DNA from: a virus
Lineage: Duplodnaviria > Caudoviricetes
Virus record (IMG/VR): IMGVR_UViG_641201351_000001
Coordinates: 32,001 to 96,000 of that record
DNA length: 64,000 bases
Strand: one strand, 5' to 3'
The position numbers and the translations under genes are program-made. Under the pieces are notes generated by a model. The model searched no databases. It was not told the origin of the DNA and saw only the letters and a list, made by a program, of their open reading frames with translations. Shown one piece after another: positions 22,337 to 64,000 of the stretch; position 1 is the first letter of the stretch; each line of letters begins with the position of its first letter.

Positions 22337-23108
22337 AATCCACATCTAGTGCGTTTTTTTCGTTTAATTCTTTAATTCTGTTTCTTACGGCAGTTGTGTT
22401 AACAATGAGTGTAATAAAGTCTTCTAAAGAGTTGGCCTCTATTAATGCCCTAGCATACTCGTCTTGATAAAGCCTTTCTTGAAGCTTTATTGCTGTTTGA
22501 GGATCTAATTCTGATAAGATTTCGTACATTGCCTTTACAAAAGCAACTTCCCTTTGTCTATCAAGCACTTTTTCTATTAGGTTTAGATAAGTATTTGTTT
22601 GATCAACAGAAAGTTTCAATAGAACCTCAAATCTCCTTATGCTATCTTTCCAAGCGTTTAGGAGCTTTCTATTTTCAAGAACACCATCAATTCCTTTTTC
22701 TGCTAACAGGGAAGATATTTTTTCTCTTAATTTTTTAGAGATTATTGTATTGAATGTTATTTCCTTTGATAGTGCGCTTACTGAATTAAAAAAAGAATAT
22801 AAAACGCCAAAATGTGAGCTTGGATCTACAAAGCTGAGTTCCTGCAACTTCTTATCGTCAAAGTAGAAAAGATAAAAGTCTTGAAGAAGTTTGTGTATTA
22901 AGCTTGTGGATACGCCATAGCGGTTTGATATTTCATTTATGCTCAGTTTGTTTATGGAATAATCTTCTAAAACTTTGGCGATTAAATCTCTTCTTGATAG
23001 AGTTTTGTGGTTTTTGTGTGTTTCTTCTAAAGATTCAAACAAAGCAATTGCTTCTTGTAAATCCTTCTTTTCTGCTTCTTTTAATAGTTTAATGTTTATG
23101 TCCCTCAT
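22320..23108 (-). CDS. HTH protein, terminase small subunit candidate
   Basis: LSINEISNRYGVSTSLIHKLL HTH; helical; directly upstream of TerL. Confidence 0.55.
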   Translation of the reverse strand: MRDINIKLLKEAEKKDLQEAIALFESLEETHKNHKTLSRRDLIAKVLEDYSINKLSINEISNRYGVSTSLIHKLLQDFYLFYFDDKKLQELSFVDPSSHFGVLYSFFNSVSALSKEITFNTIISKKLREKISSLLAEKGIDGVLENRKLLNAWKDSIRRFEVLLKLSVDQTNTYLNLIEKVLDRQREVAFVKAMYEILSELDPQTAIKLQERLYQDEYARALIEANSLEDFITLIVNTTAVRNRIKELNEKNALDVDYAEEE

Positions 23109-52609: not shown

Positions 52610-52817
52610 AAGTACTATTTTAATCAGAATGTTTTAGCAATAATTTAAATTTGAAAAAGCGTTTACTTACATTTCGCTCTCACTACATATATAAACTTAT
52701 TCCTATTTCGCACTTTATCCAAAACAAAATCCGTTTCAAGTTATTGCCAAAAAACGCAATATATATGGATAGCGTTTAGCTCTTTTTTGTATGGAGTTTG
52801 TGATAAGAATGTTTCTC

Positions 52818-52850
52818 AAAAAATAATTAGGGGGGCTTGTTTGGCCCCCC
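52818..52850 (-). terminator. Intrinsic terminator
   Basis: GGGGGGC/GCCCCCC hairpin with T-rich tail on the minus strand. Confidence 0.7.
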
Positions 52851-52866
52851 ACACCCCTTTCCTCCC

Positions 52867-53073
52867 TTACTTTAGCCTATAGGCATATTCTGTTGCGTAA
52901 GGGAGAAAGGGCACCTCCCAAACCTCAATGTATTCTGCACCCCTTTTCTTAACGATAAGGGCTTCTGCATGGCGATTTATGCCGATAGTCTTGAGAATGT
53001 TCTTGACAAGCATGGGGTTAAGAACAAGAACATACCCCTTTTCGTCCCAAAATTGTCCAATGGGCTTCTTCAT
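52867..53073 (-). CDS. Small early protein (68 aa), paralogue of 53328..53534
   Basis: GGAGGTGA SD before ATG 53073; GAEYIEVW..AYRLK. Confidence 0.8.
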   Translation of the reverse strand: MKKPIGQFWDEKGYVLVLNPMLVKNILKTIGINRHAEALIVKKRGAEYIEVWEVPFLPYATEYAYRLK

Positions 53074-53092
53074 CCCACTCACCTCCACCTTC

Positions 53093-53121
53093 ATAATACC
53101 CTACTTAATCCTTTTTGTCAA
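53093..53121 (-). promoter_or_regulatory. Sigma70-type promoter
   Basis: TTGACA-17 nt-TATTAT. Confidence 0.85.
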
Positions 53122-53280
53122 GCCCCAACACTTAATCACCATGCGTATCATGCGTGTATTCGGCATATAGGGAGGGCGCATAAGCTTGAGTGAGAGTGTG
53201 TTAGGAAAATTTACACGCTGAAACGCTAATGCACAAAATGTAACTTTTTTATTTTTCCCCTAGCGTTTAATTTTGTTTTA

Positions 53281-53314
53281 AAAAAAGATTAAGGGGGGCC
53301 AAGTTAGCCCCCCC
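53281..53314 (-). terminator. Intrinsic terminator
   Basis: GGGGGGC/GCCCCCC hairpin plus T tail on the minus strand. Confidence 0.7.
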
Positions 53315-53327
53315 ACTACGCCTATCG

Positions 53328-53534
53328 CTACTTCAAGCGATAGGCAATATCGTAAAGCTTCCACCCAAAGGTACCCCACACCTCGGCGTAATCGGCCCCA
53401 GAAGAATCAAGCTTTACAAGAAGATAGGGGAAGCGCTCACAAGTACCAATATACTCAAGTACGGACTTCACATCCTGAGAATCTTGCAAGAAAATGTAGC
53501 TATCGTCAAAGTCCCTGAGAAGCTTCTTTTCCAT
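53328..53534 (-). CDS. Small early protein (68 aa), paralogue of 52867..53073
   Basis: GGAGGTGA SD; GADYAEVW..AYRLK. Confidence 0.8.
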   Translation of the reverse strand: MEKKLLRDFDDSYIFLQDSQDVKSVLEYIGTCERFPYLLVKLDSSGADYAEVWGTFGWKLYDIAYRLK

Positions 53535-53553
53535 CCTACTCACCTCCACCTTC

Positions 53554-53582
53554 ATCATAACCCATTAATGACTATTTGTCAA
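53554..53582 (-). promoter_or_regulatory. Sigma70-type promoter
   Basis: TTGACA-17 nt-TATGAT. Confidence 0.85.
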
Positions 53583-53766
53583 GCCTATCTGCCAATAGCG
53601 TGCACCTAACGTTGAGGTAAGTATGAAGTTTGTGTTGGGGAAAATTGCTTAAAGCGTAAACGCATAAACGCTAAACGCAAAGCCACAGAATTTTGTCTGT
53701 TGGAGATATTAATGGATAGCGTTTAATTGTTTTTGTATGCCCCCCTTCAACGGGGGGGCGTGCAAG

Positions 53767-53919
53767 CTAACCTTCTATGACCTCTCCTCCGATGAGGAGG
53801 AATACTATTTTCCCGCCCCTTTTATCCATAGCTTCTAGGGCGAATCCTGACAACCTTATTTCCTCAGCGTACCTGATGAAGTGTAGAAGATTTTCAATGA
53901 ACCTGATGACTTTGCTCAT
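53767..53919 (-). CDS. 50-aa early protein not in the ORF track
   Basis: MSKVIRFIENLLHFIRYAEEIRLSGFALEAMDKRGGKIVFLLIGGEVIEG; own promoter, GGAGGTGA SD and a downstream G/C hairpin. Confidence 0.75.
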   Translation of the reverse strand: MSKVIRFIENLLHFIRYAEEIRLSGFALEAMDKRGGKIVFLLIGGEVIEG

Positions 53920-53937
53920 GGTTCACCTCCCAACACT

Positions 53938-53966
53938 AAGATACCTCTTTTAGTACATTTTGTCAA
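53938..53966 (-). promoter_or_regulatory. Sigma70-type promoter
   Basis: TTGACA-17 nt-TATCTT. Confidence 0.8.
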
Positions 53967-53975
53967 GGGGGGAGT

Positions 53976-54005
53976 AAAAAGAAAAACCTCCCCTTTACGG
54001 GGAGG
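53976..54005 (-). terminator. Repeated terminator CCTCCCC-loop-GGGGAGG
   Basis: Hairpin followed by TTTTTCTTTTT on the minus strand. Confidence 0.85.
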
Positions 54006-54021
54006 TTAAGGTTAGGGGGGC

Positions 54022-54252
54022 TTACTTAAACTCCTTCACATAAGGAGCTTGCAAGCCCCTCTGCCTTATTAACAAAACCCTATCAGGAAACACAGCGAGA
54101 GAGTGATGAACAAAGTCAAGCTTGCTTAGAGTTTCGGAGAAGTCCAAAAGAAGGACTTCACCAAAGTTTTCATCCTCCAAGATTTTTACCGAGATTCCGA
54201 GATTGAGGGATTCAAGGAACTCTTTCAACGCTTCTTTCTCTTGCCTAGTCAT
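54022..54252 (-). CDS. Small early protein (76 aa)
   Basis: GGAGGTGA SD before ATG 54252. Confidence 0.75.
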   Translation of the reverse strand: MTRQEKEALKEFLESLNLGISVKILEDENFGEVLLLDFSETLSKLDFVHHSLAVFPDRVLLIRQRGLQAPYVKEFK

Positions 54253-54271
54253 GCTCATCACCTCCACCCTC

Positions 54272-54300
54272 ATCTTAGCACCAGAAAATAAGTGCGTCAA
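54272..54300 (-). promoter_or_regulatory. Sigma70-type promoter
   Basis: TTGACG-17 nt-TAAGAT with TG extension. Confidence 0.8.
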
Positions 54301-54327
54301 GAGGCATTAGCGTTTACTTAGCGTTTT

Positions 54328-54357
54328 AAAAAAGAAAAACCTCCCCGAAAGGGGAGG
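54328..54357 (-). terminator. Repeated terminator CCTCCCC-loop-GGGGAGG
   Basis: Hairpin plus T run. Confidence 0.85.
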
Positions 54358-54381
54358 CTACACTTCCTCTACCATTTCCAC

Positions 54382-54618
54382 TCAGGATCGGATATACATC
54401 ACGCTATCCCCGTAGTACCATGCACTAAGTACTTTATCTTTGTCAGTAACTACCACGGCCACTCCAGTTGGATTGTGAAGATTAAAGTAGATGTCGTGTG
54501 TTAGACCATACTCATCTTCAGCGATGATGTGTAAGAGATCGCCGTCTGTATAGACTTCCTTTACTTTTTTCCTGACCAAAGACCCGTTTAGTAAGATGTT
54601 TAGTACCTTTCCGACCAT
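54382..54618 (-). CDS. Small early protein (78 aa)
   Basis: AAGGAGGTGA SD before ATG 54618. Confidence 0.75.
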   Translation of the reverse strand: MVGKVLNILLNGSLVRKKVKEVYTDGDLLHIIAEDEYGLTHDIYFNLHNPTGVAVVVTDKDKVLSAWYYGDSVMYIRS

Positions 54619-54656
54619 CTTCTTCACCTCCTTGAGCCTTCCTCAGGCTCACATCT

Positions 54657-54685
54657 ATCTTAATACCTCAGCACCTCAAAGTCAA
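54657..54685 (-). promoter_or_regulatory. Sigma70-type promoter
   Basis: TTGACT-17 nt-TAAGAT. Confidence 0.75.
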
Positions 54686-54863
54686 GGCTCCATAGCGTGT
54701 ACATTATCTATTTCTAGGTGCGTATGCTTGCGATTTGCGATTTATTTACGCTAAAAGCGTAATACACGCTAAAAGCAAAATAAAAACTATCTCCAAAATA
54801 CTTTTTCCACTTAGCTTTATCAAAACACTATAGGTTATCTTTTGCGTTTACTTAGCACATCTT

Positions 54864-54892
54864 AAAAGAAAAGACCTCCCCTTTCGGGGAGG
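54864..54892 (-). terminator. Repeated terminator CCTCCCC-loop-GGGGAGG
   Basis: Hairpin plus T-rich tail. Confidence 0.85.
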
Positions 54893-54908
54893 TATCCTTG
54901 TAGGGATT

Positions 54909-55154
54909 TTACTCTACAAGGATCTTACGAATCTTGCCCTTTCTTTCCTCTATGCGCACTTTTCCAAAGGGGCTGTCCTCAAAGCCAACAAGCCTCCAGC
55001 TACTAGCACTAGTAACGCGGCATTGATCGCACCTCTTGGGTGGTTTGGTCTTAGCTTCAGCCACAAACTCCTTTCCACACTTCTCGCAAACGAGGACGAT
55101 CTTTTTAGGTGTCGGGCTCCTTTTCGTCATGCTAGCCTTTGTGCTCTTTCCCAT
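54909..55154 (-). CDS. Basic Zn-ribbon protein, paralogue of 59036..59266
   Basis: CEKCGKEF..PPKRCDQCR; AAGGAGGT SD. Confidence 0.85.
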   Translation of the reverse strand: MGKSTKASMTKRSPTPKKIVLVCEKCGKEFVAEAKTKPPKRCDQCRVTSASSWRLVGFEDSPFGKVRIEERKGKIRKILVE

Positions 55155-55190
55155 CTTTTACCTCCTTTGTCCCCTTGCGGGGACACCTTC

Positions 55191-55219
55191 ACTATACCTC
55201 ATATCCCCCTTTTTGTCAA
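55191..55219 (-). promoter_or_regulatory. Sigma70-type promoter
   Basis: TTGACA-17 nt-TATAGT. Confidence 0.85.
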
Positions 55220-55504
55220 GACCTATCTTGTGGGGTTTATTAGGGGGGGCGCTCAAAGCGTGTAGATTTGAAGATTGTCGTGAGATTTTGAAGATAGTTA
55301 AATGTAAACGCTAAAGCAGAGATTAGGGAGAGTTTTATGAAAATAAACGCTAGGATAATAAAAGTTTTGATTTTGAGATTTTTATTTTTGGGGTTTTTGT
55401 TTTTGAGATTTTTTGATCATTGGGTTTGTTTTGGGCGCTTGTTTTAAAATCTATTGAAAGCGTTTACTTGTTTTTGCGCAAAATAAAAAACAAAACATTT
55501 TCTT

Positions 55505-55990
55505 TTAATCTTCGTAAACAATCAAAATAGCATTCTTTGATATTCCTAGTTTAATAGCTTTCTCGTAAGTATCAACTACTATATCTGCAGATTTTATGTA
55601 TCTGGAGTTCATTGTGTCGTAGACAATACCTTCAAAAATTCCTAAATCTGAGATGATTTTTACTTTTTTGCCGCAAAGATGTTTTTTACGATTTTTGTCA
55701 AAGAATAAATCTTGTGATAGCGCTATGATTGTTTCTTTAACTCTTTCTATTGGGCCACAAGAGGCAACATATGGATCATCATCAGTTTGCTGAGGAACTA
55801 AGTTATAGAAGGATAATCTATTTAGCTTTTTGGCTAGAATAATATTAAAGTCTTCTTTGCTTTTGTCTTTTATGTAAAAATTCTTTGCGATTTGATATCT
55901 TTTATGGGCGATTTTTTCTTTGATCACAAAATATTGATCAATCATTAGAGGATTGAACAAAAACAGGAAAATGGTAAAAAGTTTTTTCAT
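55505..55990 (-). CDS. Exported 3D-domain / RlpA-like lytic transglycosylase-type protein
   Basis: Hydrophobic N-terminus; YN..PQQTDDDPYVASCG, IIALSQDL and VYDTMN..ADI. Confidence 0.7.
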   Translation of the reverse strand: MKKLFTIFLFLFNPLMIDQYFVIKEKIAHKRYQIAKNFYIKDKSKEDFNIILAKKLNRLSFYNLVPQQTDDDPYVASCGPIERVKETIIALSQDLFFDKNRKKHLCGKKVKIISDLGIFEGIVYDTMNSRYIKSADIVVDTYEKAIKLGISKNAILIVYED

Positions 55991-56023
55991 CTTGTTCCTC
56001 CTTTGCGTTTAGTTACCGAGCCT

Positions 56024-56051
56024 AAAGAAAAAACCTCCCCGAAAGGGGAGG
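56024..56051 (-). terminator. Repeated terminator CCTCCCC-loop-GGGGAGG
   Basis: Hairpin plus T run. Confidence 0.85.
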
Positions 56052-56073
56052 TTTTCTTCTTCAGGTATGCAGG

Positions 56074-56439
56074 TTAACTGACATACCTGAAGAATGGCAA
56101 CACCTTGGGGTGAGGAACTACCTCAATGATTAGTTTTTTTCCGTCAAAGCTAGAGATGATTAGCCCATCGTCAAGATATAGGTAGACATTCCTATCCCCC
56201 CTCGGAACGACAAAGAAGTTAGCAAAACCATTGTAACCCTCAGGAACCCCCCTAAGTGAAGCACCAGCGTACTCTACAAAGATGCGCCTAAGGTTAGAAA
56301 CCTCTACAAAGGCCCTAACGCTAAGCGCATCTTCACCCTTCTTCACATTCCCACCGATTTTTACATCGGTAGGCAGACCCCACTTCTCAAGGTACCTCTT
56401 GACCTCTTCCACGATCTTGTTCTGGAGTTTTTCTTCCAT
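56074..56439 (-). CDS. Early hypothetical protein (121 aa)
   Basis: AGGAGGTG SD before ATG 56439. Confidence 0.8.
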   Translation of the reverse strand: MEEKLQNKIVEEVKRYLEKWGLPTDVKIGGNVKKGEDALSVRAFVEVSNLRRIFVEYAGASLRGVPEGYNGFANFFVVPRGDRNVYLYLDDGLIISSFDGKKLIIEVVPHPKVLPFFRYVS

Positions 56440-56479
56440 CTTACACCTCCTCGCCTGAGGATTTACCCCAGGCACCTTC

Positions 56480-56508
56480 ATCCTACCACACCTTTCGTCT
56501 TGTGTCAA
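56480..56508 (-). promoter_or_regulatory. Sigma70-type promoter
   Basis: TTGACA-17 nt-TAGGAT with TG extension. Confidence 0.8.
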
Positions 56509-56641
56509 GCCCTCCCCCTCTCCGAGCATTGACTTGAGATTTTCGTGCGCTTTTGCGAGAAAGCTAAAATGTAAACGCTTTGGGAGAAATGAACGCTGAA
56601 ACGCTTAAGCAAAGAATGGTGTGTCTTGTTTTGTGGTAATA

Positions 56642-57250
56642 TTAAAAGTTTTCTTCTATTTCAAAGAGAACGCAAATATAACTCCTAGAAACGACAATGC
56701 TTTCTGTTTTCTTTGATAGTGAAACTTGGGAGATTAAAGGAAAGTATATTTCTTTTTCTTTGGCAAAATCTTCTTCTTTTGCCGGATAAAAGAAAATGTT
56801 TTTGCTTTCTATTGTTTGATAGGATCTCGTTATTGGGCTGTAAAATTTTTGTTGTGTTGTTTTTATCTTCATGAGAAAAGGTTTTGTTGAGTTGATGAGA
56901 TATCTCTTTTCGTCATCATTAACATAGTTTAAATACATGCTTTCAAAAAGCAAATCTAAAAAGTCTTCTAAGCCGCTTTCTAAATCTTCTTTATTTGGAA
57001 ACATGTCAAAAGTTTTTCTGAGGTAAAAGAAAGATTTATTTACAGCTTCTAGATGAGAGAAGGGGTTATCTAGTCTTCTTTCTTTTAACTGAAAAAGTAT
57101 TGATCTGCTAAAAAACTTTGGTTTTCTAAGAAAAAGAAGCTCTTTGTTTTGTTCAAGGATTTTTTCAACTGCTTCATAAATCATTGACTTAACTTTGTTT
57201 TGGTCAAATTTTTTGCTATCTAGCAAAATTAGTTTTTTCTCTAGCCTCAT
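56642..57250 (-). CDS. Hypothetical protein, C-terminal EENF
   Basis: Leaderless behind the promoter at 57257-57285. Confidence 0.8.
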   Translation of the reverse strand: MRLEKKLILLDSKKFDQNKVKSMIYEAVEKILEQNKELLFLRKPKFFSRSILFQLKERRLDNPFSHLEAVNKSFFYLRKTFDMFPNKEDLESGLEDFLDLLFESMYLNYVNDDEKRYLINSTKPFLMKIKTTQQKFYSPITRSYQTIESKNIFFYPAKEEDFAKEKEIYFPLISQVSLSKKTESIVVSRSYICVLFEIEENF

Positions 57251-57256
57251 GTTTTT

Positions 57257-57285
57257 AGGTTAGCAAAGCGCTAAAGCGTTGTCAA
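57257..57285 (-). promoter_or_regulatory. Sigma70-type promoter (leaderless)
   Basis: TTGACA-17 nt-TAACCT, then 6 nt and ATG. Confidence 0.8.
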
Positions 57286-57348
57286 GCGTTATATATTTGA
57301 GATGACAGCGTTTACTTATTTTTTCGTTAGAAAAAACTAAAAATTTTC

Positions 57349-57783
57349 TCAAAACACTTCTCTTAATATCACAAACTCAACTTCTCCAAAGCACAAATAT
57401 AGCGAACTATTTTTATCATAAACTCCAAAAATTGGTTTGTATATTGAATATGATCGGTGCGCATAATCCTTTTCAGACTTTTCTTTTAAGTAATATCTAA
57501 TCAAATCTTCATAATCTTCTATTTGTATAATGTCAAGAAGTTCTAATGTTATTCTTCTTTTGAAATCCTCCACGCTTGCATGTTCTTTTAAAGCAAACAT
57601 TCTTTTTTCTTTCCAGCGATTTAAAGCGTGTTTGTAATTTTTAAAATTCTCTTTGTATTTTGAATACGCTTTCTCAAAATCTTTGTAGTAAGTAATTTTG
57701 TGAGCATAATGCTTTAGAGAAATCATCGGGCTGTAGTGAGGTTGTGCAAAAAAGTATTTTTTGGCCTTTACTTCAAAAATCAT
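57349..57783 (-). CDS. Hypothetical protein, paralogue of 57796..58221 (ends REVF)
   Basis: EVK.KKYF..P.Y.P.I.LK.Y and YEDLI..YL shared with the neighbour. Confidence 0.85.
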   Translation of the reverse strand: MIFEVKAKKYFFAQPHYSPMISLKHYAHKITYYKDFEKAYSKYKENFKNYKHALNRWKEKRMFALKEHASVEDFKRRITLELLDIIQIEDYEDLIRYYLKEKSEKDYAHRSYSIYKPIFGVYDKNSSLYLCFGEVEFVILREVF

Positions 57784-57795
57784 AATTAAACCCCT

Positions 57796-58221
57796 TCAAA
57801 ACACTTCATGAATTTTCACATATTCAACTTCTCCGAAAAATACATAAGCTAGATTACTTTTATCGTGAAACCCCAAAATCGGTTTATGTATCAAAAAGAG
57901 ATTTCTTTTAAACTTCCCATTCAAATATGAAGTTATCAAATCTTCGTAAGTTTCCATTGGAAACATATAAAGAACTTCTGATGTTCTTAAATTTTCAAAG
58001 TATTCTATAGGTTTTAATTCTTCCTCTAAAACAAACATTTTTATTCCCTCCCAACGATTAAATGCAACTTTGTAATTACGAAATTCTTTTTTGTAGGCTT
58101 CAAAAGCATTTTCAAAGGTTTTGTAATAGTAAATTTTGTAAGTATATCTCTTTAAGTGTATCTTTGGATTGTAGTAGGGTTTTACATAGAAATATTTTTT
58201 ACCCTTGACCTCCAATGTCAT
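57796..58221 (-). CDS. Hypothetical protein, paralogue of 57349..57783 (ends HEVF)
   Basis: AGGAGGTGA SD; colinear similarity to the neighbour. Confidence 0.85.
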   Translation of the reverse strand: MTLEVKGKKYFYVKPYYNPKIHLKRYTYKIYYYKTFENAFEAYKKEFRNYKVAFNRWEGIKMFVLEEELKPIEYFENLRTSEVLYMFPMETYEDLITSYLNGKFKRNLFLIHKPILGFHDKSNLAYVFFGEVEYVKIHEVF

Positions 58222-58239
58222 GACTCACCTCCTAGCATC

Positions 58240-58268
58240 AGGCTAACACAAGGGGTGCTAAAAGGCAA
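58240..58268 (-). promoter_or_regulatory. Sigma70-type promoter
   Basis: TTGCCT-17 nt-TAGCCT with TG extension. Confidence 0.6.
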
Positions 58269-58369
58269 GAAGGGCTTTGGTGTGGAAAAGGGTATTAAAA
58301 TAGGGGGCCCAAAAATATGTGGATAGCGTTTACTTAGTTTTGGCAAAAATAAAAACAAAAAATAATTTC

Positions 58370-58479
58370 CTAGAAAATCTCTAGTGGAAAAATTTCAAAA
58401 ACTTCTATATCTCCGAACAAAAGATTTCTCTATGTACTATTGGTCTAGTTTTCATTACAAACGGAATGTTTATGTTCAC
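58370..58479 (-). pseudogene. Frameshifted 3' remnant of the 57349/57796 family
   Basis: MKTRPIV in one frame and RNLLFGDIEVFEIFPLEIF-stop in another; compare HKPILG..FGEVEYVKIHEVF. Confidence 0.45.
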
Positions 58480-58480
58480 C

Positions 58481-58927
58481 TCAAAAGTAAGGAAAATAGT
58501 CAGGGAAAAATATTAAGTCTACAAGTATTCTCTTCTTCGGATTATATCTATGTGTACTTTCGGCAAAAGACAATATGATTGTATCAGGAACTAAACCTTT
58601 CCTATACGCAGATATTACCTTTTTGTGAATAAAAGGATGTGGGTTTTTAATAAATTCAAAAATGTTTTTGGATTTTCTATAGTTAAGCCTGAAGTTATAG
58701 GGTGTAAAGGTAAAATATTGGTTTAGCATTAAAAACGCCTTAATACCAATATCTACAGGAATATCTGTACTTACATACTTGTATCCGCTATATTTGTGGT
58801 CTTCCTTTAATCCGTATCCTTGAGGATTAAGAAATTCATTTACATCTTGAGCATACTTTTCTAAAATTTTCTTAAAGTGCGAACTTTTTACAATATAAAG
58901 TTTTGCGTAAGTGCTGCTTGCAACCAT
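58481..58927 (-). CDS. Hypothetical protein (ends FPYF)
   Basis: Leaderless behind the promoter at 58934-58962. Confidence 0.75.
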   Translation of the reverse strand: MVASSTYAKLYIVKSSHFKKILEKYAQDVNEFLNPQGYGLKEDHKYSGYKYVSTDIPVDIGIKAFLMLNQYFTFTPYNFRLNYRKSKNIFEFIKNPHPFIHKKVISAYRKGLVPDTIILSFAESTHRYNPKKRILVDLIFFPDYFPYF

Positions 58928-58933
58928 GCTTGT

Positions 58934-58962
58934 ACCCTATCACACACCAGGGGAATAGTCAA
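58934..58962 (-). promoter_or_regulatory. Sigma70-type promoter (leaderless)
   Basis: TTGACT-17 nt-TAGGGT with TG extension, then 6 nt and ATG. Confidence 0.65.
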
Positions 58963-58992
58963 GGGGGGCTTAGCGTTTACTTAATTTTGGGT

Positions 58993-59020
58993 AAAAGAAA
59001 AACCTCCCCTTTCGGGGAGG
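58993..59020 (-). terminator. Repeated terminator CCTCCCC-loop-GGGGAGG
   Basis: Hairpin plus T run. Confidence 0.85.
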
Positions 59021-59035
59021 CTTGTATTCTTCTTG

Positions 59036-59266
59036 CTATTCAACCAAGATTTTCCTCACTTTACCATTCCTTTCCTCAACCCTAACCTTACCATATTTAG
59101 TATCCTCGTAGCCAATCACTTTCCATGTAGTATTCTTGCGGCAATCTTCACAATATTTAGGAGGACGGGTTTTGCTTTCGGTAACAAACTCCTTTTGGCA
59201 CTTTTGGCACACAATCAAGACCTTCTTTACATGAACATTACGGACCTTCTTTTCGTTCTTGCCCAT
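59036..59266 (-). CDS. Basic Zn-ribbon protein, paralogue of 54909..55154
   Basis: CQKCQKEF..PPKYCEDCR; GGAGGTGA SD before ATG 59266. Confidence 0.85.
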   Translation of the reverse strand: MGKNEKKVRNVHVKKVLIVCQKCQKEFVTESKTRPPKYCEDCRKNTTWKVIGYEDTKYGKVRVEERNGKVRKILVE

Positions 59267-59285
59267 CTTCTTCACCTCCACCCCC

Positions 59286-59314
59286 AAGATACCACAAAGA
59301 AAGATGATTGTCAA
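59286..59314 (-). promoter_or_regulatory. Sigma70-type promoter
   Basis: TTGACA-17 nt-TATCTT with TG extension. Confidence 0.85.
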
Positions 59315-59416
59315 GGGGGGATTGAGAAGATTGACCTCGGTTGGGCTGGTTTTGCGTGAACTTCAGACTGCAAAGTTGCGAAGTTTGGAAGGGGATTGTT
59401 AAAAATAAACGCTTAA

Positions 59417-59824
59417 TCATAAATTGTCAGTTTCTTTATTTTCTTCTAGTTCCCTCAACTTTTTAGCATAAAACCACTCTAAGAAGATGATAAAAAGTGT
59501 GTTAAATAGGAGATAAAGAACTAAGTCATTTGTATAAATCTTTTTTGTTATCATTTCTGTGGCAAAAAGAAAAATAAATTGAATTACAATGAAAGCTAAT
59601 ATTAAAATCCTTAAAAGGGGAATATCTTTGAAATCTGGATAAGTTTTCAAATAAGAGTCCTCAGCTTTTTTGCCAAAATTCATCATGAATATCGCAAACA
59701 AAATATAAAATTCCTTTTCGCTTAAAGCTAATAATTTTGCAACAATAAAAGAAAATGCGTTATAAATTAAATAGAAAAACATTGACATTCTTATTGATTG
59801 TATTTGTGCTTCATGCTTGTTCAC
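59417..59824 (-). CDS. Four-TM membrane protein
   Basis: GAGGTG SD, GTG start, four hydrophobic segments. Confidence 0.75.
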   Translation of the reverse strand: MNKHEAQIQSIRMSMFFYLIYNAFSFIVAKLLALSEKEFYILFAIFMMNFGKKAEDSYLKTYPDFKDIPLLRILILAFIVIQFIFLFATEMITKKIYTNDLVLYLLFNTLFIIFLEWFYAKKLRELEENKETDNL

Positions 59825-59834
59825 TTTTCACCTC

Positions 59835-60380
59835 TCAGAAAGAAATGTTCTTTTTAACAAGGTAAGCGTTAGCGTACACTCTGAAAATATCTTCTCTTTC
59901 ACCTTTAAACTCTACTTCTAACCTAAAAATTTTTATTGGCACAAAAAGATACGCTGGTATTCTTTGTAGAATTTGCAAATCATTACATGCTTTAAAAAGC
60001 TCTTTAAAGGACTTAAAGAAAAATGCATGGTTTTCTACTCTTTTTAAATTTCTTGAAATTTCTAAAAAAAACTCAGAATCAGCAGATCCTTTTACTGCAA
60101 GTGTTCTTGCTACACTAGCGGGATAAAGAAGCCAATATATGTCTTTCAAATCCACACTTTCTACCGAAACAAGTTTAAGATTTTTTAGTTTTAATATTTG
60201 CGGCCCTAACCCTTCATTTAGCATTTTAAAATCTTTTTCTATTTGAGAAAAATCATCTATGAAAACAACTTTGTTGCTAACGATTGAAGCCAATTTTTCA
60301 GACATTTTTTGAATATAGTCTTTTTCATTAAAGACTGCATATCGTTTATGTAAAACATCTAAGAATGGTGGTACTTCCAT
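59835..60380 (-). CDS. Hypothetical protein (ends NISF)
   Basis: GGAGGTGA SD behind a promoter. Confidence 0.8.
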   Translation of the reverse strand: MEVPPFLDVLHKRYAVFNEKDYIQKMSEKLASIVSNKVVFIDDFSQIEKDFKMLNEGLGPQILKLKNLKLVSVESVDLKDIYWLLYPASVARTLAVKGSADSEFFLEISRNLKRVENHAFFFKSFKELFKACNDLQILQRIPAYLFVPIKIFRLEVEFKGEREDIFRVYANAYLVKKNISF

Positions 60381-60405
60381 TTAGGTTCACCTCCCCCCAA
60401 GAGGG

Positions 60406-60434
60406 AGTGTAACACAAGCCTAGGCGCTTGTCAA
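60406..60434 (-). promoter_or_regulatory. Sigma70-type promoter
   Basis: TTGACA-17 nt-TACACT with TG extension. Confidence 0.85.
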
Positions 60435-60502
60435 GAGCGCTTGATAAATGTGTATATATTTTGATAGCGTTTATTTGTTTTATGACAAAACAAAAAAATT
60501 CC

Positions 60503-61045
60503 TTAAAATATCTCGTTAAGGCTATACAAATACATCTTTCCTAGCATTGCAGAAACCTCTATTTTTAGAGAGGTTTCTTCAGGTTTTGTATTTTCAAAGG
60601 TTATGTAATAATCGGGAATAAAGATTTGACCTTTTTTAAAATCAAAGATGTTGTCAATAGCGTAAAAGTATTTTTTGCTTACAACTTTAACTCTTATTTT
60701 GTCGCTATAAATTCCATTTATTCCATTTGCTGGAACAGCATAATCTGCTATGTAAAAAGCTATATCGTTTTTAAAAGTTTTTATTTTTCTTGGCGCAAAT
60801 TTGTCAAGTAGCGATTCAAAAGGTGCGGATCTATAGTGATAAAGATTTTTAACAAATAAAGTTCCCAAATCAAGAATTGTGTCTATATCATATTTGTCTT
60901 CCTCAAAAATCATCATTGGAAGCCTTTTCTTTTCATTAAAGTCAAACTTTTTACCATTCTGAGTAATGTAGTATCTGAAGATAACAAGAACTTCATCAGA
61001 AAATTTTTTCTCAAAAACTTCAGTATTTACGATGTTTCTAATCAT
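60503..61045 (-). CDS. Hypothetical protein (ends NEIF)
   Basis: TAATG coupling; AGGAGGTG SD inside the upstream gene. Confidence 0.8.
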   Translation of the reverse strand: MIRNIVNTEVFEKKFSDEVLVIFRYYITQNGKKFDFNEKKRLPMMIFEEDKYDIDTILDLGTLFVKNLYHYRSAPFESLLDKFAPRKIKTFKNDIAFYIADYAVPANGINGIYSDKIRVKVVSKKYFYAIDNIFDFKKGQIFIPDYYITFENTKPEETSLKIEVSAMLGKMYLYSLNEIF

Positions 61046-61575
61046 TAAAACACCTCCTCTATTTTGTATTCATACAAAACTCCAATTAATCCTTCTATCA
61101 TTCCAGAAAGTTCATCTGTATCTTTCAAAAGTATTTTCCTTTGTGCAACAAATAAAGTATCGCCTTCTATTACTTCTTTTAAATCTTTTATCTCTTCTAT
61201 TTGAGAAGGCCTAAGATAAACAATAGACATTGTGTAGTCATCAATAACATGTTCGCTATAATCATCAATAAAAACCGAGAAATACTTTTTTTCAATAGCT
61301 TTGCTACAAACAACCTTTGTGCTGAAAGTCTTCAACAAATCTCTCTCAAGAGATAAACATGACAAGTTGTTGTAAAAATACTCAATTGATCTGTAAAAAG
61401 TTTTGTTGTCTACGAAATCAGAAATAATGAAAGATTTGTACAAAGAAAACTCTCCTACTATTTCGTCAGCAAAGCGATTGTTTTCGCTAGGATAATAGTC
61501 TAGTTCTAGATACGCTTTATATCTCTTCAAGATTTTAAAGGACTTTGACTCCAAGAAACCTTCTACTGCTTTCAT
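61045..61575 (-). CDS. Hypothetical protein, paralogue of 62337..62867 (ends EEVF)
   Basis: YKAYLEL.YYP..NRFADEIV and GMIEGL.GVLYEYKIEEVF; likely start MKAVEG. Confidence 0.85.
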   Translation of the reverse strand: MKAVEGFLESKSFKILKRYKAYLELDYYPSENNRFADEIVGEFSLYKSFIISDFVDNKTFYRSIEYFYNNLSCLSLERDLLKTFSTKVVCSKAIEKKYFSVFIDDYSEHVIDDYTMSIVYLRPSQIEEIKDLKEVIEGDTLFVAQRKILLKDTDELSGMIEGLIGVLYEYKIEEVF

Positions 61576-61618
61576 TCTAATCCCCCCCTTCTTAAAGACA
61601 TAATCATAGCAATGAAAC

Positions 61619-62131
61619 TTAAAAAATCTCTTCACGATGCTTTACTCTATATATTCTTCCAACAAAACATTTTTCAATTAATTCTACCCTTTTAAACCAT
61701 CTGCCTTCTCTAAATGACTCAACAACAGAATCAACAATAAGCAAGTAAACTGCAGGATAAAGCATTTCTAAATCTGTTATTCTCTCTCTTATGTAATTCA
61801 CTTCTGAAATCTTCATTCTATCGTAAACATAAGTTGTGTGAATTACTCTTTTGTTAGAAATAACCTTTTTCTCACTACCACTATGAGCTATAATATAGCA
61901 ATCATACTCAGGGTCAAGAACTTGGTAAAAATAAATGTATTTGCGTCCTATCTTGTCAGTTGTTAGCTTAGATATCTTTTTCAAGTATTCCTCTTTGTTC
62001 AAAATCTTCACTTCTCTAGATATGCCGCTATTAGAGAAAAAGTAGTTGGCATCTAAGATTTCTAAAAAAGGCAAAAAGTTTTTGAGGCTTTTGTAATCTT
62101 CTAGTTCTTTAATAATGCTTTCCCCCACCAT
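61619..62131 (-). CDS. Hypothetical protein, paralogue of 63510..64000 (ends EEIF)
   Basis: FLPFLEI, KEEY, DK.GRKY.YF, YDR, YP.VYLL and GRIY shared. Confidence 0.85.
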   Translation of the reverse strand: MVGESIIKELEDYKSLKNFLPFLEILDANYFFSNSGISREVKILNKEEYLKKISKLTTDKIGRKYIYFYQVLDPEYDCYIIAHSGSEKKVISNKRVIHTTYVYDRMKISEVNYIRERITDLEMLYPAVYLLIVDSVVESFREGRWFKRVELIEKCFVGRIYRVKHREEIF

Positions 62132-62148
62132 GACACCTCCCCTCTTAA

Positions 62149-62177
62149 AGGCTACTGCTAAGGCCCTATAAAGTCAA
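62149..62177 (-). promoter_or_regulatory. Sigma70-type promoter
   Basis: TTGACT-17 nt-TAGCCT. Confidence 0.65.
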
Positions 62178-62268
62178 GAAGAGAGAGGCAAGGCTTTATG
62201 AAGCACAAAAGCTAGGGGGGGGAAGATATATTTAGGATAGCGTTTACTTGTTTTTAACGAAACAAAAA

Positions 62269-62337
62269 TCAAAAAGCTTCATTTGGAGTGTGGAAATGTC
62301 TATAAAACGGGGGACTATTTACTATGTCTTTAATCAT
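62269..62337 (-). CDS. 22-aa mini-ORF, internally deleted copy of 60503..61045
   Basis: MIKDIVNSPPFYRHFHTPNEAF; same SD and TGATG coupling as the paralogous junction at 61045. Confidence 0.55.
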   Translation of the reverse strand: MIKDIVNSPPFYRHFHTPNEAF

Positions 62338-62867
62338 CAAAACACCTCCTCTATTTTGTATTCATATAAAACTCCAGCCAATCCTTCTATCATTCCAGGA
62401 AAATCGCTAACATCATCAAGTAATATTTCTCTTTCAGCAACAAATAGTTGGTAGTTTCCTACTAGTTCTCTTAAGCTTTTTACTTCTTCTATTTGTGAAG
62501 GTTTGAGATATGAAACGACTATTGAGCTAACTTCATTGCTATAATCAACATATTCGTCAATAAAAAGCGAATAATATTTTTTGGCAATTCTCTTGCCACT
62601 AATAACTTTCGTATCAAAAGTTTTAAATAAATCTCTTTCTAATGTTAAACCAGACATAACATTGTAGTAATACTCAATGGCCTTGTAAAAGATTTTGTTG
62701 CTTACATAGTCAGAAATAATAAAAGCCTTACAACGAGAAAATTCTTCAACTATTTCGTCTGCAAAACGATTGCTATTGTTTGGATAGTAATTAAGTTCTA
62801 AGTAAGCTTTGTATATCTTTAATGCTTTAAAGTTAGCCGATTTTAAAAATTCCTCTAAAACTTTCAC
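62337..62867 (-). CDS. Hypothetical protein, paralogue of 61045..61575 (ends EEVF)
   Basis: AAGGAGG SD; high colinear similarity. Start 62867-62876. Confidence 0.85.
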   Translation of the reverse strand: MKVLEEFLKSANFKALKIYKAYLELNYYPNNSNRFADEIVEEFSRCKAFIISDYVSNKIFYKAIEYYYNVMSGLTLERDLFKTFDTKVISGKRIAKKYYSLFIDEYVDYSNEVSSIVVSYLKPSQIEEVKSLRELVGNYQLFVAEREILLDDVSDFPGMIEGLAGVLYEYKIEEVF

Positions 62868-62884
62868 CTGCATCACCTCCTTTC

Positions 62885-63373
62885 TCAGAACATGTAATCA
62901 TAGGTCAATAAAAACCCCAGACCTAAAATATTGTGTGTTTCTTTCAATTTTCTAAAGCCTGCATTTAACACAAAAAACTCATCGTACTCCATAATAGGAA
63001 GAAACATAAAGTCTGTAAAATAATCTTCAATATGTGGCTTTACGAATGAGAAAATATTTTCCTCGTTTATTTCTTTAAATAAGATTTTTCCGTTTTCATC
63101 GTTAGTTACAAAAAATAGCTTTTCTTCATCGTAAAACTTAATATTTTTCACTTTTCTATCAGCGTCTTGATCTAAGGAAGCTTTTATTGCAGTATTTAAA
63201 AAATGTTCAAAATTTTTTCCTCCCAGATCAGTTTCGTATATGTGAGAAATCGTTGAAGCCACATCATTATCAAAATAATAGTATTTGATAGTTACTATTG
63301 AAAAGTGTCTTGCTTTAAACATTCCACTAATCTTCTTGATTTTTTCGTTTACTAAGCGAATGTATTCTTTCAT
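62885..63373 (-). CDS. Hypothetical protein (ends DYMF)
   Basis: GGGGGTGA SD before ATG 63373. Confidence 0.8.
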   Translation of the reverse strand: MKEYIRLVNEKIKKISGMFKARHFSIVTIKYYYFDNDVASTISHIYETDLGGKNFEHFLNTAIKASLDQDADRKVKNIKFYDEEKLFFVTNDENGKILFKEINEENIFSFVKPHIEDYFTDFMFLPIMEYDEFFVLNAGFRKLKETHNILGLGFLLTYDYMF

Positions 63374-63392
63374 CTCTTCACCCCCTCGCCTT

Positions 63393-63421
63393 AGTTTAAA
63401 GGACAAAACGCCTTAGGTCAA
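63393..63421 (-). promoter_or_regulatory. Sigma70-type promoter
   Basis: TTGACC-17 nt-TAAACT. Confidence 0.7.
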
Positions 63422-63509
63422 GTAGCGTGCAAGCGCTCAGTTGTCTATATATAGAGGATAGCGTTTATCTAACCTTTCACAAAAAAGAAAAAAATAAAAA
63501 ACAATAATC

Positions 63510-64000
63510 TTAGAATACTTCTTTGCGATATTTGATCTTATATATTCGTCCTAAAGTTGACTCCTCAACTATTTCTATTCTTTTTGTAAACATATTTTCT
63601 TTATAAGACGCAATCCTGTAATCAAGTACCAATAAGTAAACATTTGGATAAATGTTACTAACAAACTCTACTTCTCTTTGGAAGCTTTTTATTTTAATGG
63701 GAGAAGAATTATTAAATCTATCATATATGTAAGAAGGAAAACGCTTTCTAACATTAGATAATATATTGCTTTCTTCCCATTCGTGATAAACTAGATAGTA
63801 TTTCGTTTCAGGGCGAAAAATTTGGTGGAAATATAAATACTTCCTGCCTTTTTTGTCAACTACTAGGCGAGATAAAATTCTAATATATTCTTCTTTTTCT
63901 ATCATTTTTATTTCATTAGAAACTTTCCACCCAGAACGAAAGTATTGTGATTTAATTATCTCAAGGAAAGGAAGAAAAGGTTTAATATCTTGAAAATCAT
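63510..64000 (-). CDS. Hypothetical protein, 5' partial, paralogue of 61619..62131 (ends KEVF)
   Basis: Frame stays open to the window edge (DFQDIKPFLPFLEII..). Confidence 0.85.
   Translation of the reverse strand, partial: DFQDIKPFLPFLEIIKSQYFRSGWKVSNEIKMIEKEEYIRILSRLVVDKKGRKYLYFHQIFRPETKYYLVYHEWEESNILSNVRKRFPSYIYDRFNNSSPIKIKSFQREVEFVSNIYPNVYLLVLDYRIASYKENMFTKRIEIVEESTLGRIYKIKYRKEVF

What the first reader, a model, noticed from the sequence alone, without database searches (positions are those of the whole stretch)
52658..63467. AGCGTTTA(CTT) motif marks almost every spacer of the early array, often as facing inverted pairs
Seen: at least 14 plus-strand copies of (T)AGCGTTTA(CTT) and 8 reverse copies, all intergenic. 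In the transcribed direction the motif follows the stop or terminator of one unit and precedes the next promoter; its distance to the -35 box varies from about 8 to more than 60 nt. Several spacers hold facing pairs (53221/53262, 53665/53718, 55344/55459) or tandem copies (53657-53678). TAGCGTG variants sit just upstream of -35 boxes (near 53596, 54693, 63423). In the first 52 kb I noticed only scattered chance copies in coding DNA (e.g. near 22654). Inference: an operator for a phage protein that shuts off or organises the whole early region, a core site for cassette recombination, or a DNA-entry/replication signal. It is not a promoter, SD or terminator element.
Basis: partly seen in the sequence, partly recalled or inferred. 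Interest (0 to 1): 0.82.

Follow-up and report, generated by a model that had tools for sequence, protein, structure and literature searches.

The report
Conserved boundary box between phage early genes
A short DNA word, always pointing the same way, closes almost every small early gene unit of a heat-loving Thermus phage and its relatives; it is as well conserved as the promoters, is probably the docking site of an unknown protein, and often sits where gene cassettes have been swapped.

Summary
AGCGTTTA occurs 19 times in the window against 1.9 expected. 17 copies lie in 52658-63467, all in 3,005 nt of spacers where 0.12 are expected.

The word is the core of an oriented box of about 21 nt, AAAAAnAAG-TAAACGCT-ATCC on the transcribed (-) strand. 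The array is about 20 kb and runs past the window end, to genome 104.4 kb. Three relatives keep the box: 28 of 28 copies of the 11-mer lie on one strand. Box columns are invariant in 63/64 cases, -35 hexamers in 46/48, and the rest of the spacers in 873/1247.

There are two classes of site.
- Forward boxes are tied to a T-tract/A-tract at the end of the upstream unit, not to the next promoter.
- Reverse copies, often 2-3 in 7-8 nt register, sit 85-99 nt upstream of -35 in six GC-richer cassettes.

Cassette swaps often end at the box, but the enrichment within spacers is only about 2-fold (p about 0.04).

Best reading: the recognition site of an unidentified DNA-binding protein that marks unit boundaries, and that also serves as microhomology for PeSL-like cassette shuffling. 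The function is inferred. There are no RNA data and no binding protein is known.

The parts
52610..64000 (-). Window part of the early ORFan cassette array. Genes are on the - strand and the array continues beyond the window to genome 104,450.
   Evidence: ORFs; spacers; promoters and terminators; extent
52658..52665 (-). Forward box core (TAAACGCT on the - strand), 35 nt upstream of the TAAAAT leaderless-type -10 of the 612-aa gene
52771..52778 (-). Forward box, long form TAAACGCTATCC; 3' end of cassette A
53212..53227 (+). Two reverse-class variant cores in 8-nt register (AGCGTTTC, AGCGTGTA on the - strand), 98-106 nt upstream of the -35 at 53121; 5' end of cassette A
53262..53269 (-). Forward box, 23 nt after the terminator stem ending at 53292; 3' end of cassette B
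53657..53679 (+). Three reverse-class cores in 7-8 nt register (one exact, two with one mismatch), 82-97 nt upstream of the -35 at 53582; 5' end of cassette B
53718..53725 (-). Forward box, long form
54309..54316 (-). Forward box, 22 nt after the terminator stem ending at 54338 and 8 nt before the -35 TTGACG
54763..54770 (+). Reverse-class variant (AGCGTGTA), 85 nt upstream of the -35 at 54685; 5' end of cassette E
54843..54850 (-). Forward variant TAAACGCA, 24 nt after the terminator stem ending at 54874. This is the right-hand junction of the 54.36-54.84 kb cassette that is absent from TMA and YS40_Isch.
55305..55312 (+). Reverse box, 93 nt upstream of the -35 at 55219
55344..55351 (+). Reverse box; 5' end of cassette F. 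It is one junction of the slot that holds an extra gene in TMA and the UViG.
55459..55466 (-). Forward box; the other junction of that slot (homology with TMA and the UViG ends 3 nt from it)
56004..56011 (-). Forward variant TAAACGCA, followed directly by the SD and ATG of gene 55505-55990. No -35/-10 lies between them.
56572..56605 (+). Reverse box (exact, 56572) plus two variants (56590, 56598), 71-97 nt upstream of the -35 at 56508; 5' end of cassette H
57307..57314 (-). Forward box after a 7-bp AT dyad
58325..58332 (-). Forward box, long form. It is the left repeat of the 646-nt deletion seen in a metagenome contig.
58972..58979 (-). Forward box, 21 nt after the terminator stem ending at 59000 and 9 nt before -35. 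It is the right repeat of the same deletion, and homology with YS40_Isch and the UViG starts 1 nt from it.
59406..59413 (+). Reverse box directly after the stop codon of gene 59417-59824, 99 nt upstream of the -35 at 59314; 5' end of cassette Z
60466..60473 (-). Forward box after an 8-bp AT dyad
62239..62246 (-). Forward box, long form
63460..63467 (-). Forward box, long form

Best explanation
What it is. AGCGTTTA is the invariant core of an oriented box of about 21 nt, AAAAAnAAG-TAAACGCT-ATCC on the transcribed strand. With a T-tract 8-25 nt upstream, the box closes nearly every transcription unit of a roughly 20-kb array of small early genes of unknown function in a phiYS40-type Thermus myovirus. 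The same core in the opposite orientation, often as 2-3 copies in 7-8 nt register, lies 85-99 nt upstream of the -35 of six GC-richer cassettes. Those cassettes are therefore bounded by inverted cores.

What is shown: the anatomy, the enrichment, the orientation, and conservation equal to that of the -35 hexamers.

First inference (about 0.6). The box is the recognition site of a sequence-specific DNA-binding protein. That protein is unidentified and is more likely phage-encoded than host-encoded.

Second inference (about 0.3). The bound protein marks unit boundaries. It stops or insulates transcription at the T-tract just upstream, acting as a polar roadblock. This would matter most for the AT-rich units, whose dyads cannot fold at 65 C.

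Side effect (shown in examples, statistically weak). Because it is the best conserved spacer sequence, the box is also the microhomology at which cassettes are deleted, inserted and exchanged between related phages. Promoter/stem-loop modules (PeSLs) play that role in T4-type phages.
For: - Enrichment. 19 copies against 1.9 expected in the window. 17 copies lie in 3,005 nt of spacers against 0.12 expected, and the word is the top 7-9-mer there. Across the whole array, spacers hold 22 copies in 4,390 nt, array coding DNA 2 in 15,451 nt, and the rest of the genome 17 in 132,531 nt.
- Orientation and relatives. The 11-mer TAAACGCTATC occurs 8, 11 and 9 times in three relatives, all on one strand and all within one stretch of about 16 kb. 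The backwards control gives 0, 1 and 0. In this genome I count 10 copies in the listing.
- Constraint. In 9 spacers alignable in at least 3 phages, box columns are invariant in 63/64 cases, -35 in 46/48 and the rest in 873/1247. Fisher p = 1.4e-8.
- Width. The logo of 36 non-redundant forward copies shows A at -8, -7, -3 and -2 in 89-94%, and ATC at +8 to +10 in 72-81%.
- Coupling to the unit end. An A-tract ends exactly 4 nt before the box in 27 of 41 copies. A T-tract ends 8-25 nt before it in 30 of 40. TTGAC follows at 7-200 nt and is absent within 220 nt in 14 of 43. The box starts 21-24 nt after the stem of four GC terminators.
- Both orientations and tandem 7-8 nt register argue for DNA-level recognition.
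- AT dyads before the box: 25 of 43 against 9.7 +/- 2.4 in the control. Their fold energy is 0.0 at 65 C in 10 of 16 copies, and -0.5 and -0.7 in two more.
- Exchange at the box. The same left flank is joined to different right flanks, or the reverse, at the box. Three events have both ends at boxes: the UViG lacks 53278-53717; TMA and the UViG carry a gene between 55354 and 55456; a metagenome contig skips 58352-58997, in each case 19 nt past a box.
Against: - No binding protein is identified. 40 array proteins gave no DNA-binding Pfam family.
- The zinc-ribbon cassette protein gave no fold match. The model has pLDDT 72.5 and the best PDB match has E = 0.56.
- There are no transcript data. 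Two RNA runs laid no reads, which is no test.
- Junction enrichment at the box within spacers is weak: 10/40 against 5.5 expected, p = 0.042; 10/27 against 5.7, p = 0.043; exact copies only, 7/27 against 3.7, p = 0.07.
- 18 of 45 unique junction ends lie in coding DNA.
- The box-free early stretch at 104.7-112 kb has sigma-A-type promoters and is equally mosaic. The box-bearing stretch at 97.5-102.5 kb is fully syntenic.
- One terminator-promoter junction (53920-54021) has no box.
- Gene 55505-55990 has a variant box but no promoter of its own. An efficient roadblock there would silence it.
- Co-orientation could be inherited from tandem duplication rather than selected.
Confidence: 0.45

Rival explanations
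1. The forward box is a promoter. TATCCT, which overlaps the 3' end of the box, would act as a -10-like hexamer, and TAAACGC would be an upstream element read by a phage factor, a modified host polymerase or an unrecognised phage polymerase. This would give the early genes a second transcription mode.
For: All long-form copies point the way the genes do: 28 of 28 in the relatives. They lie upstream of genes. T at +7 is invariant, and A, T and C follow in 72-81%. DNA downstream is AT-rich. Gene 55505-55990 has a variant box but no -35/-10. TMA has a box 16 nt before an annotated start.
Against: Positions +12 to +20 carry only 0.1-0.3 bits, and the last T of the putative hexamer is present in 53%. 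The box does not resemble the TGnTAAAAT-N6-ATG leaderless class of this genome. No Sigma70_r2 or Rpb1 domain was found. The Sigma70_r4 hit is sub-threshold. The T7-type polymerase search had no working control. Reverse copies are left unexplained. The box is fixed relative to the upstream unit end, not to the downstream gene.
Confidence: 0.12
2. The box is the core or terminal inverted repeat of a site-specific recombination or transposition system that moves promoter-gene-terminator cassettes. This would be integron-like or MITE-like.
For: Six cassettes of 418-602 nt, with 42-47% GC in a 33% GC genome, are bounded by inverted cores. Three events have both ends at boxes, and flanks are swapped at the box.
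Against: No tyrosine or serine recombinase, Y1, rve or DDE_Tnp_1 family was found, and the only TnpB-type hit is a sub-threshold zinc ribbon. By eye I see no flanking duplication at any of the 6 cassettes. The 10 or more AT-rich units have forward boxes only. The deletions lie between direct repeats that share about 20-50 nt, as homologous recombination would give. Junction enrichment is only about 2-fold.
Confidence: 0.12
3. The box is a classical operator of a repressor that shuts the early promoters off.
For: Many sites lie in both orientations upstream of early promoters. A few abut -35, with the box starting 16-17 nt before -35 at 54309 and 58972 and variants at 54694 and 63423. As I recall the abstract of the 2007 transcription paper, which I could not fetch, the early-to-middle switch of this phage is unexplained at the polymerase level.
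Against: No box overlaps a -35/-10/+1 core. Distances to -35 range from 7 to 200 nt. Sigma-A-type promoters at 104.7-112 kb and elsewhere lack the box.
Confidence: 0.13
4. The box acts in RNA, as a processing, stability or protein-binding signal in the 3' untranslated part of each early transcript.
For: It is co-oriented with transcription, lies just after the stop codons of the AT-rich units, and follows a dyad.
Against: In four cassettes it lies beyond the terminator's T-tract. The core also occurs inverted. The AT dyads do not fold at 65 C. No Rfam family reaches its threshold.
Confidence: 0.08
5. The box has no function of its own. It is a relic of tandem duplication, kept uniform by gene conversion between cassettes.
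For: The array holds paralogous cassettes: two DUF6839 genes and two zinc-ribbon genes. All units are co-oriented.
Against: 63/64 box columns are invariant against 70% for the surrounding spacer in orthologous comparisons. The six upstream modules share about 51% identity, yet keep the core and the -35. The box is present next to cassettes that are unique to single phages.
Confidence: 0.08

Closest known systems
PeSLs (promoter-early stem-loop cassettes) of T4-type phages. Arbiol et al. 2010, PMC2839356: abstract and section 13 read. Comeau et al. 2014, PMC4122927: abstract read.
   Same: Dense intergenic regulatory modules, made of a sigma-70-type early promoter plus a stem-loop terminator, flank small genes of unknown function in plastic regions of a lytic myovirus. 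Insertions, deletions and replacements between close relatives end in these modules. Both features are seen here.
   Different: In PeSLs the conserved parts are the promoter and the stem-loop themselves. Here the best conserved spacer element is a separate oriented box that matches neither consensus, and a second, inverted class lies 85-99 nt upstream of -35. Mini-circles were not tested.
Polar protein roadblock terminators and fork barriers of rDNA arrays (Reb1/TTF-I sites with an upstream T-rich element; Fob1 barriers). Recalled, not looked up.
   Same: An oriented protein site lies a fixed short distance downstream of a T-rich stretch at the 3' end of each unit of a co-oriented array, and is associated with recombination in the array. 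This is a likeness of working only.
   Different: The organisms and polymerases are unrelated. No binding protein, no termination and no fork arrest are shown here.
Tandem short-repeat operators of ribbon-helix-helix repressors (7-bp heptads of omega of pSM19035; 8-bp metboxes of MetJ). Recalled, not looked up.
   Same: Cores in 7-8 nt register, in direct and inverted orientation, lie upstream of promoters, for example at 53657-53679.
   Different: No ribbon-helix-helix family was found among the 40 array proteins scanned. The sites are 85-99 nt from -35, not over the promoter.
Integron attC sites and terminal inverted repeats of MITEs. Defining features are recalled.
   Same: Inverted short cores bound small cassettes.
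   Different: The cassettes carry their own promoter and terminator. No integrase or transposase was found. No target duplication is seen by eye.

Membership tests
PeSL-type regulatory cassette (T4-type phages) | An intergenic module combining a sigma-70-like early promoter with a stem-loop terminator | tested here: met
   TTGACA-17-TAnnnT promoters and GC-rich hairpin plus T-run terminators lie in the spacers. Canonical terminators precede only 4-5 of the 16 boxes.
PeSL-type regulatory cassette (T4-type phages) | Preferentially flanks small genes without known homologues in plastic regions | tested here: met
   Among 40 array proteins the only families found are two DUF6839, weak zinc-ribbon hits, one AAA and one DUF2201. 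Only 0.56-0.88 of the 85-92.5 kb bins aligns with relatives.
PeSL-type regulatory cassette (T4-type phages) | Indel and replacement junctions between close relatives fall in the modules | tested here: met
   40 of 72 unique HSP ends lie in spacers that make up 22% of the array (p = 7e-10). Concentration at the box itself is weak.
PeSL-type regulatory cassette (T4-type phages) | The conserved repeated sequence is the promoter and the stem-loop | tested here: not met
   The commonest and most invariant spacer word is the box, which is neither promoter nor stem-loop.
PeSL-type regulatory cassette (T4-type phages) | Excised mini-circles formed by exchange between neighbouring modules | not testable with these tools
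   Needs PCR or deep sequencing of lysates.
Sigma-70/sigma-A promoter or intrinsic terminator | Match to the -35/-10 hexamers at 16-18 nt spacing, or a GC-rich hairpin followed by a T-run | tested here: not met
   No scan hit coincides with a box. No conserved hexamer lies at a fixed distance downstream.
MotA-box type middle promoter (T4). Defining features are recalled. | A 9-bp box about 12 bp upstream of a conserved TAnnnT -10 | tested here: not met
   Positions +12 to +20 after the core carry 0.1-0.3 bits.
Integron attC / site-specific cassette system. Defining features are recalled. | A tyrosine recombinase encoded with the array, and promoterless cassettes | tested here: not met
   PF00589 and PF00239 gave no match in the genome, and their controls worked. 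The cassettes have their own promoters.
MITE/IS terminal inverted repeats. Defining features are recalled. | Inverted ends, a target-site duplication, and a cognate transposase | tested here: inconclusive
   Inverted cores bound 6 cassettes. No duplication is seen by eye in any of the 6. Y1_Tnp, rve and DDE_Tnp_1 gave no match, and the only TnpB-type hit is a sub-threshold zinc ribbon. A host enzyme was not examined.
Known RNA families (Rfam 15) | A covariance-model match at the gathering score | tested here: not met
   8 matches at E <= 1, all below their gathering scores, and none at a box.

The most novel reading that the evidence does not exclude
The box is the site of a phage protein that acts as a polar barrier at the 3' end of every early unit. 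It would be a bacterial-virus counterpart of the rDNA terminator and fork-barrier sites. It would enforce termination at a bare T-tract at 65 C, where AT hairpins cannot fold. By stalling polymerases, it would also make the boxes hotspots for the duplication, loss and exchange of cassettes. A variant of this reading is that the six GC-richer cassettes bounded by inverted cores are true mobile units, moved by an enzyme of no known family.
Probability: 0.12. Interest if true: 0.8.

Novelty: new variant of a known kind. Interest (0 to 1): 0.55.

Why it matters
As I recall the abstract of the 2007 transcription study of phiYS40, host polymerase from infected and uninfected cells transcribes all its promoter classes in vitro, so the cause of the temporal switch is open. 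I could not fetch that paper.

An array-specific DNA element that is conserved as strongly as the -35 hexamers, yet is not part of any promoter, gives a concrete handle on that question. It can serve as bait for the missing factor and as a site to mutate.

It also extends the PeSL idea of regulatory modules as joints for gene shuffling to a thermophilic, unrelated myovirus. Here the joint is a separate box.

If the box assists termination where AT-rich hairpins cannot fold, it would show how an AT-rich phage punctuates transcription at 65-70 C.

Tried and rejected
- A 14-mer scan of viral contigs (AGTAAACGCTATCC) gave only single, evidently chance matches.
- Protein-based searches for more relatives added one genome only. 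The 612-aa neighbour found one UViG in viral contigs and the same contig in metagenome contigs. The DUF6839 and zinc-ribbon cassette proteins found nothing in viral contigs.
- Sequencing runs: no RNA holder is listed. Two metatranscriptome runs of a study that holds a relative laid 0 reads, which is no test.
- An ungapped flank-swap test anchored on the box, against TTGAC and GGAGGTG anchors, did not discriminate. The controls also gave many one-sided matches.
- DnaA box, sigma-A -35, UP element, boxA and ECF-type readings of the box were considered by eye and dropped, because no further feature was conserved at the required spacing.
- The zinc-ribbon cassette protein was tried as a candidate binder. 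The model has pLDDT 72.5 and no PDB match at E <= 0.001.
- PHROGs names for six proteins are all 'unknown function'.
- Literature. Searches for the motif letters together with Thermus thermophilus returned only unrelated papers: 12 and 6 papers, listings seen. Searches on phiYS40/promoters and TMA/YS40 gave no paper on this element, listings seen.
- The three primary papers on this phage group are not held, so I cannot say that the box is unreported there. They are PMC1885378 (also tried by its PubMed id), PMC1773054 and PMC3225780. Their supplements were not seen either.

Full report
Where we are. The window is bases 32001-96000 of a 152,372-bp virus record. The stretch 52-64 kb matches Thermus phages TMA and YS40_Isch at about 89% identity over about 60% of its length. 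The YS40_Isch record annotates its genes there as counterparts of YS40_083 to YS40_117. The genome is therefore of the phiYS40 type. That its length equals the published length of phiYS40 is recalled, not checked. GC content is 31-39% across the stretch. The genes of the stretch lie on the - strand, so 'forward' below means reading TAAACGCT on the - strand.

AGCGTTTA occurs 19 times in the window against 1.90 +/- 1.31 in shuffles. Of these, 17 lie in 52658-63467, 12 on the + strand and 5 on the - strand. All 17 lie in the 3,005 nt of spacers between my 22 hand-checked genes, where base composition predicts 0.12. The word and its sub-words are the commonest 7-, 8- and 9-mers of these spacers, ahead of TTGACA and the ribosome-binding words.

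The cluster does not stop at the window's end. The genome holds 41 copies. The array runs from genome 84,610 to about 104,450. Its spacers (4,390 nt) hold 22 copies, its coding DNA (15,451 nt) holds 2, and the remaining 132,531 nt hold 17. That residue of 17 is high but not unique: it ranks 15th of 1,680 words of the same composition, beside codon-driven words. Genome-wide the word ranks first.

Anatomy, forward class. Read on the transcribed strand, the 8-mer is the core of a longer oriented box. Four phages hold 62 forward copies, of which 36 are non-redundant. Among these, A is present at -8, -7, -3 and -2 in 89-94%, and A, T, C follow the core in 72-81%. Beyond +12 there is almost no information. 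The consensus is AAAAAnAAG-TAAACGCT-ATCC.

The 11-mer TAAACGCTATC occurs 8, 11 and 9 times in the three relatives. All copies are on one strand and all lie in one stretch of about 16 kb. The pattern read backwards occurs 0, 1 and 0 times. In this genome I count 10 copies in the listing.

The box is rigidly tied to what lies upstream of it, in 43 non-redundant copies:
- An A-tract ends exactly 4 nt before it in 27 of 41.
- A T-tract ends 8-25 nt before it in 30 of 40.
- The next TTGAC lies anywhere from 7 to 200 nt downstream, and is missing within 220 nt in 14 of 43.
- Where the upstream unit ends in a GC-rich hairpin terminator, the box starts 21, 22, 23 or 24 nt after the stem in four cases.

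In the AT-rich units the T-tract and A-tract form a perfect dyad of at least 5 bp that ends 0-8 nt before the box. This holds in 25 of 43 copies, against 9.7 +/- 2.4 when the last 14 nt are permuted. One orthologous pair shows a double, compensating change (TTTTTG/CAAAAA against TTTTTA/TAAAAA). These AT dyads are not stable hairpins at 65 C. Their energy is 0.0 in 10 of 16 copies, and -0.5 and -0.7 in two more. The four GC terminators keep about -10 kcal/mol.

Anatomy, reverse class. The core also occurs in the opposite orientation, mostly in the GC-richer part (52.8-56.6 and 59.0-59.4 kb). It often forms 2-3 copies in 7-8 nt register, for example at 53657, 53665 and 53672. Each of six promoters has such a copy starting 85-99 nt upstream of its -35, and the orthologues in the three relatives keep that spacing. 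The six upstream modules share only about 51% identity, and the core and the -35 are their only invariant blocks. Together with the forward box after their terminators, these six cassettes (418-602 nt, 42-47% GC against 30-31% next door) are bounded by inverted cores. I see no flanking duplication.

Constraint. Nine spacers can be aligned full-length in at least three phages. In these, box columns are invariant in 63 of 64 cases, -35 hexamers in 46 of 48, the extended box in 82 of 103, and the rest of the spacer in 873 of 1,247. Fisher p = 1.4e-8. The other 14 of 23 spacers had too few full-length orthologues, which itself shows the turnover.

Recombination. The array is mosaic. In the 85-92.5 kb bins only 0.56-0.88 aligns with the relatives, while the flanking core genes align completely.

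Ends of BLAST alignments fall in spacers far more often than expected: 40 of 72 unique ends, where spacers are 22% of the array, p = 7e-10. Within spacers the pull of the box is modest:
- 10 of 40 ends lie within 10 nt of an exact copy, against 5.5 expected (p = 0.042). The TTGAC control gives 3 of 40 against 4.3.
- For synteny-breaking junctions only, the figure is 10 of 27 against 5.7 (p = 0.043) when one-mismatch copies are counted, and 7 of 27 against 3.7 (p = 0.07) for exact copies. 18 of 45 unique ends lie in coding DNA.

Some events are nevertheless clean:
- The UViG lacks 53278-53717, which lies between two forward boxes.
- TMA and the UViG carry a whole gene exactly between the facing boxes at 55354 and 55456.
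- A metagenome contig skips 58352-58997. Both ends lie 19 nt past a forward box.
- In several places one flank of a box is shared between phages while the other flank is unrelated.

The deletion at 54357-54841 lies between two copies of a roughly 50-nt terminator-plus-box module. That is what homologous exchange between repeats would give.

Two results count against a special role of the box in plasticity. The box-free stretch at 104.7-112 kb is as mosaic as the box-bearing part. The box-bearing stretch at 97.5-102.5 kb is fully syntenic.

What it is not.
- The consensus scans place promoters and terminators beside the boxes, not on them.
- No conserved -10 follows at a fixed distance.
- The genome's leaderless TGnTAAAAT-N6-ATG class looks different.
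- Sigma-A-type promoters at 104.7-112 kb lack the box.
- No Rfam family reaches its threshold.
- No tyrosine or serine recombinase, Y1, rve or DDE transposase, sigma region 2 or Rpb1 domain was found in the genome, and the controls for these searches worked. The T7-type polymerase search had no working control. A TnpB-type hit and a sigma region 4 hit are both below threshold.
- Forty array proteins gave no DNA-binding family. The families found were DUF6839 twice, weak zinc-ribbon hits, one AAA and one VWA-like DUF2201.
- A fold of the zinc-ribbon cassette protein (pLDDT 72.5) matched nothing in the PDB, with a best E of 0.56.

Reading. Four things point to recognition of double-stranded DNA by a sequence-specific protein: conservation equal to that of the -35 hexamers, occurrence in both orientations, tandem copies in 7-8 nt register, and confinement to the spacers of one array. 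That is an inference. I put it at about 0.6.

The forward class is fixed to the T-tract at the end of the upstream unit and not to the next promoter. Most units also lack a hairpin that could fold at the host's temperature. The action I think most likely, at about 0.3, is therefore a boundary function. A bound protein would halt polymerase over the T-tract and so close the unit. The reverse copies would mark the far edge of the GC-richer cassettes.

A classical shut-off operator fits the positions less well. A promoter, a site-specific recombination core, an RNA signal and a functionless relic are each possible at roughly 0.1.

That the box serves as a joint for cassette exchange is supported by examples but only weakly by statistics. 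It is best seen as a by-product, as with PeSLs in T4-type phages (PMC2839356, abstract and section 13 read; PMC4122927, abstract read).

Novelty. I found no mention of the box in the searchable library. The three primary papers on phiYS40 and TMA are not held, so prior description cannot be excluded. As it stands this is a new variant of a known kind: a PeSL-like array whose most conserved joint is a separate, oriented box.

Noticed in passing
genome 118,077-118,397 (outside the window; L134 8077-8397): A tandem repeat of about 91 nt, about 3.5 copies at 76-78% matches, fills a roughly 390-nt non-coding gap upstream of a 187-aa ORF (phrog_32403, unknown function) that starts 9 nt after a TATAGT. 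Codons 13-24 of that ORF hold two AGCGTTTA and one GAAACGCTA within 35 nt. This may be an origin or iteron region, or a regulatory region.
   Followed up: partly
They are probably small-terminase-type proteins. The only family hit is Sigma70_r4 at E = 0.006, below the cut-off. Their PHROGs are of unknown function.
   Followed up: partly
whole genome, e.g. window 52609 (the 612-aa gene): About 40 genes have TAnnnT 5-9 nt before the ATG, many of them as TGnTAAAAT-N6-ATG. This is a leaderless, extended -10 type arrangement, distinct from the -35/-10 early promoters.
   Followed up: no
window 52771-56605 and 58972-59413: Six cassettes have 42-47% GC in a 33% GC genome, with GC-rich hairpin terminators. 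They include two DUF6839 genes and two paralogous zinc-ribbon genes (55% identity). They may have been acquired from a GC-richer source.
   Followed up: partly
genome 97,575-100,323 (L136 1575-4323): An AAA ATPase (347 aa) and a 562-aa protein with a VWA-like DUF2201 domain sit as a pair inside the box-bearing array.
   Followed up: no
genome about 96,790 (window-equivalent position about 64,790, past the window end) and its YS40_Isch counterpart: In the AT dyad before the box, this genome and TMA have TTTTTG...CAAAAA while YS40_Isch has TTTTTA...TAAAAA. This is a compensating double change in a stem that should not fold at 65 C.
   Followed up: no
window 55505-55990: This AT-rich gene has no -35/-10 of its own. 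Its SD and ATG follow a terminator and a variant box directly. The TMA orthologue has a TTGCCA-17-TATAGT promoter after its box.
   Followed up: no
window 52000-64000, metagenome runs: Contigs from a manure metagenome run and a hot-spring metagenome run cover 24 and 25 of the 30 bins at 85-99% likeness, with several cassette-sized skips. Relatives of this phage therefore occur in those two samples.
   Followed up: partly
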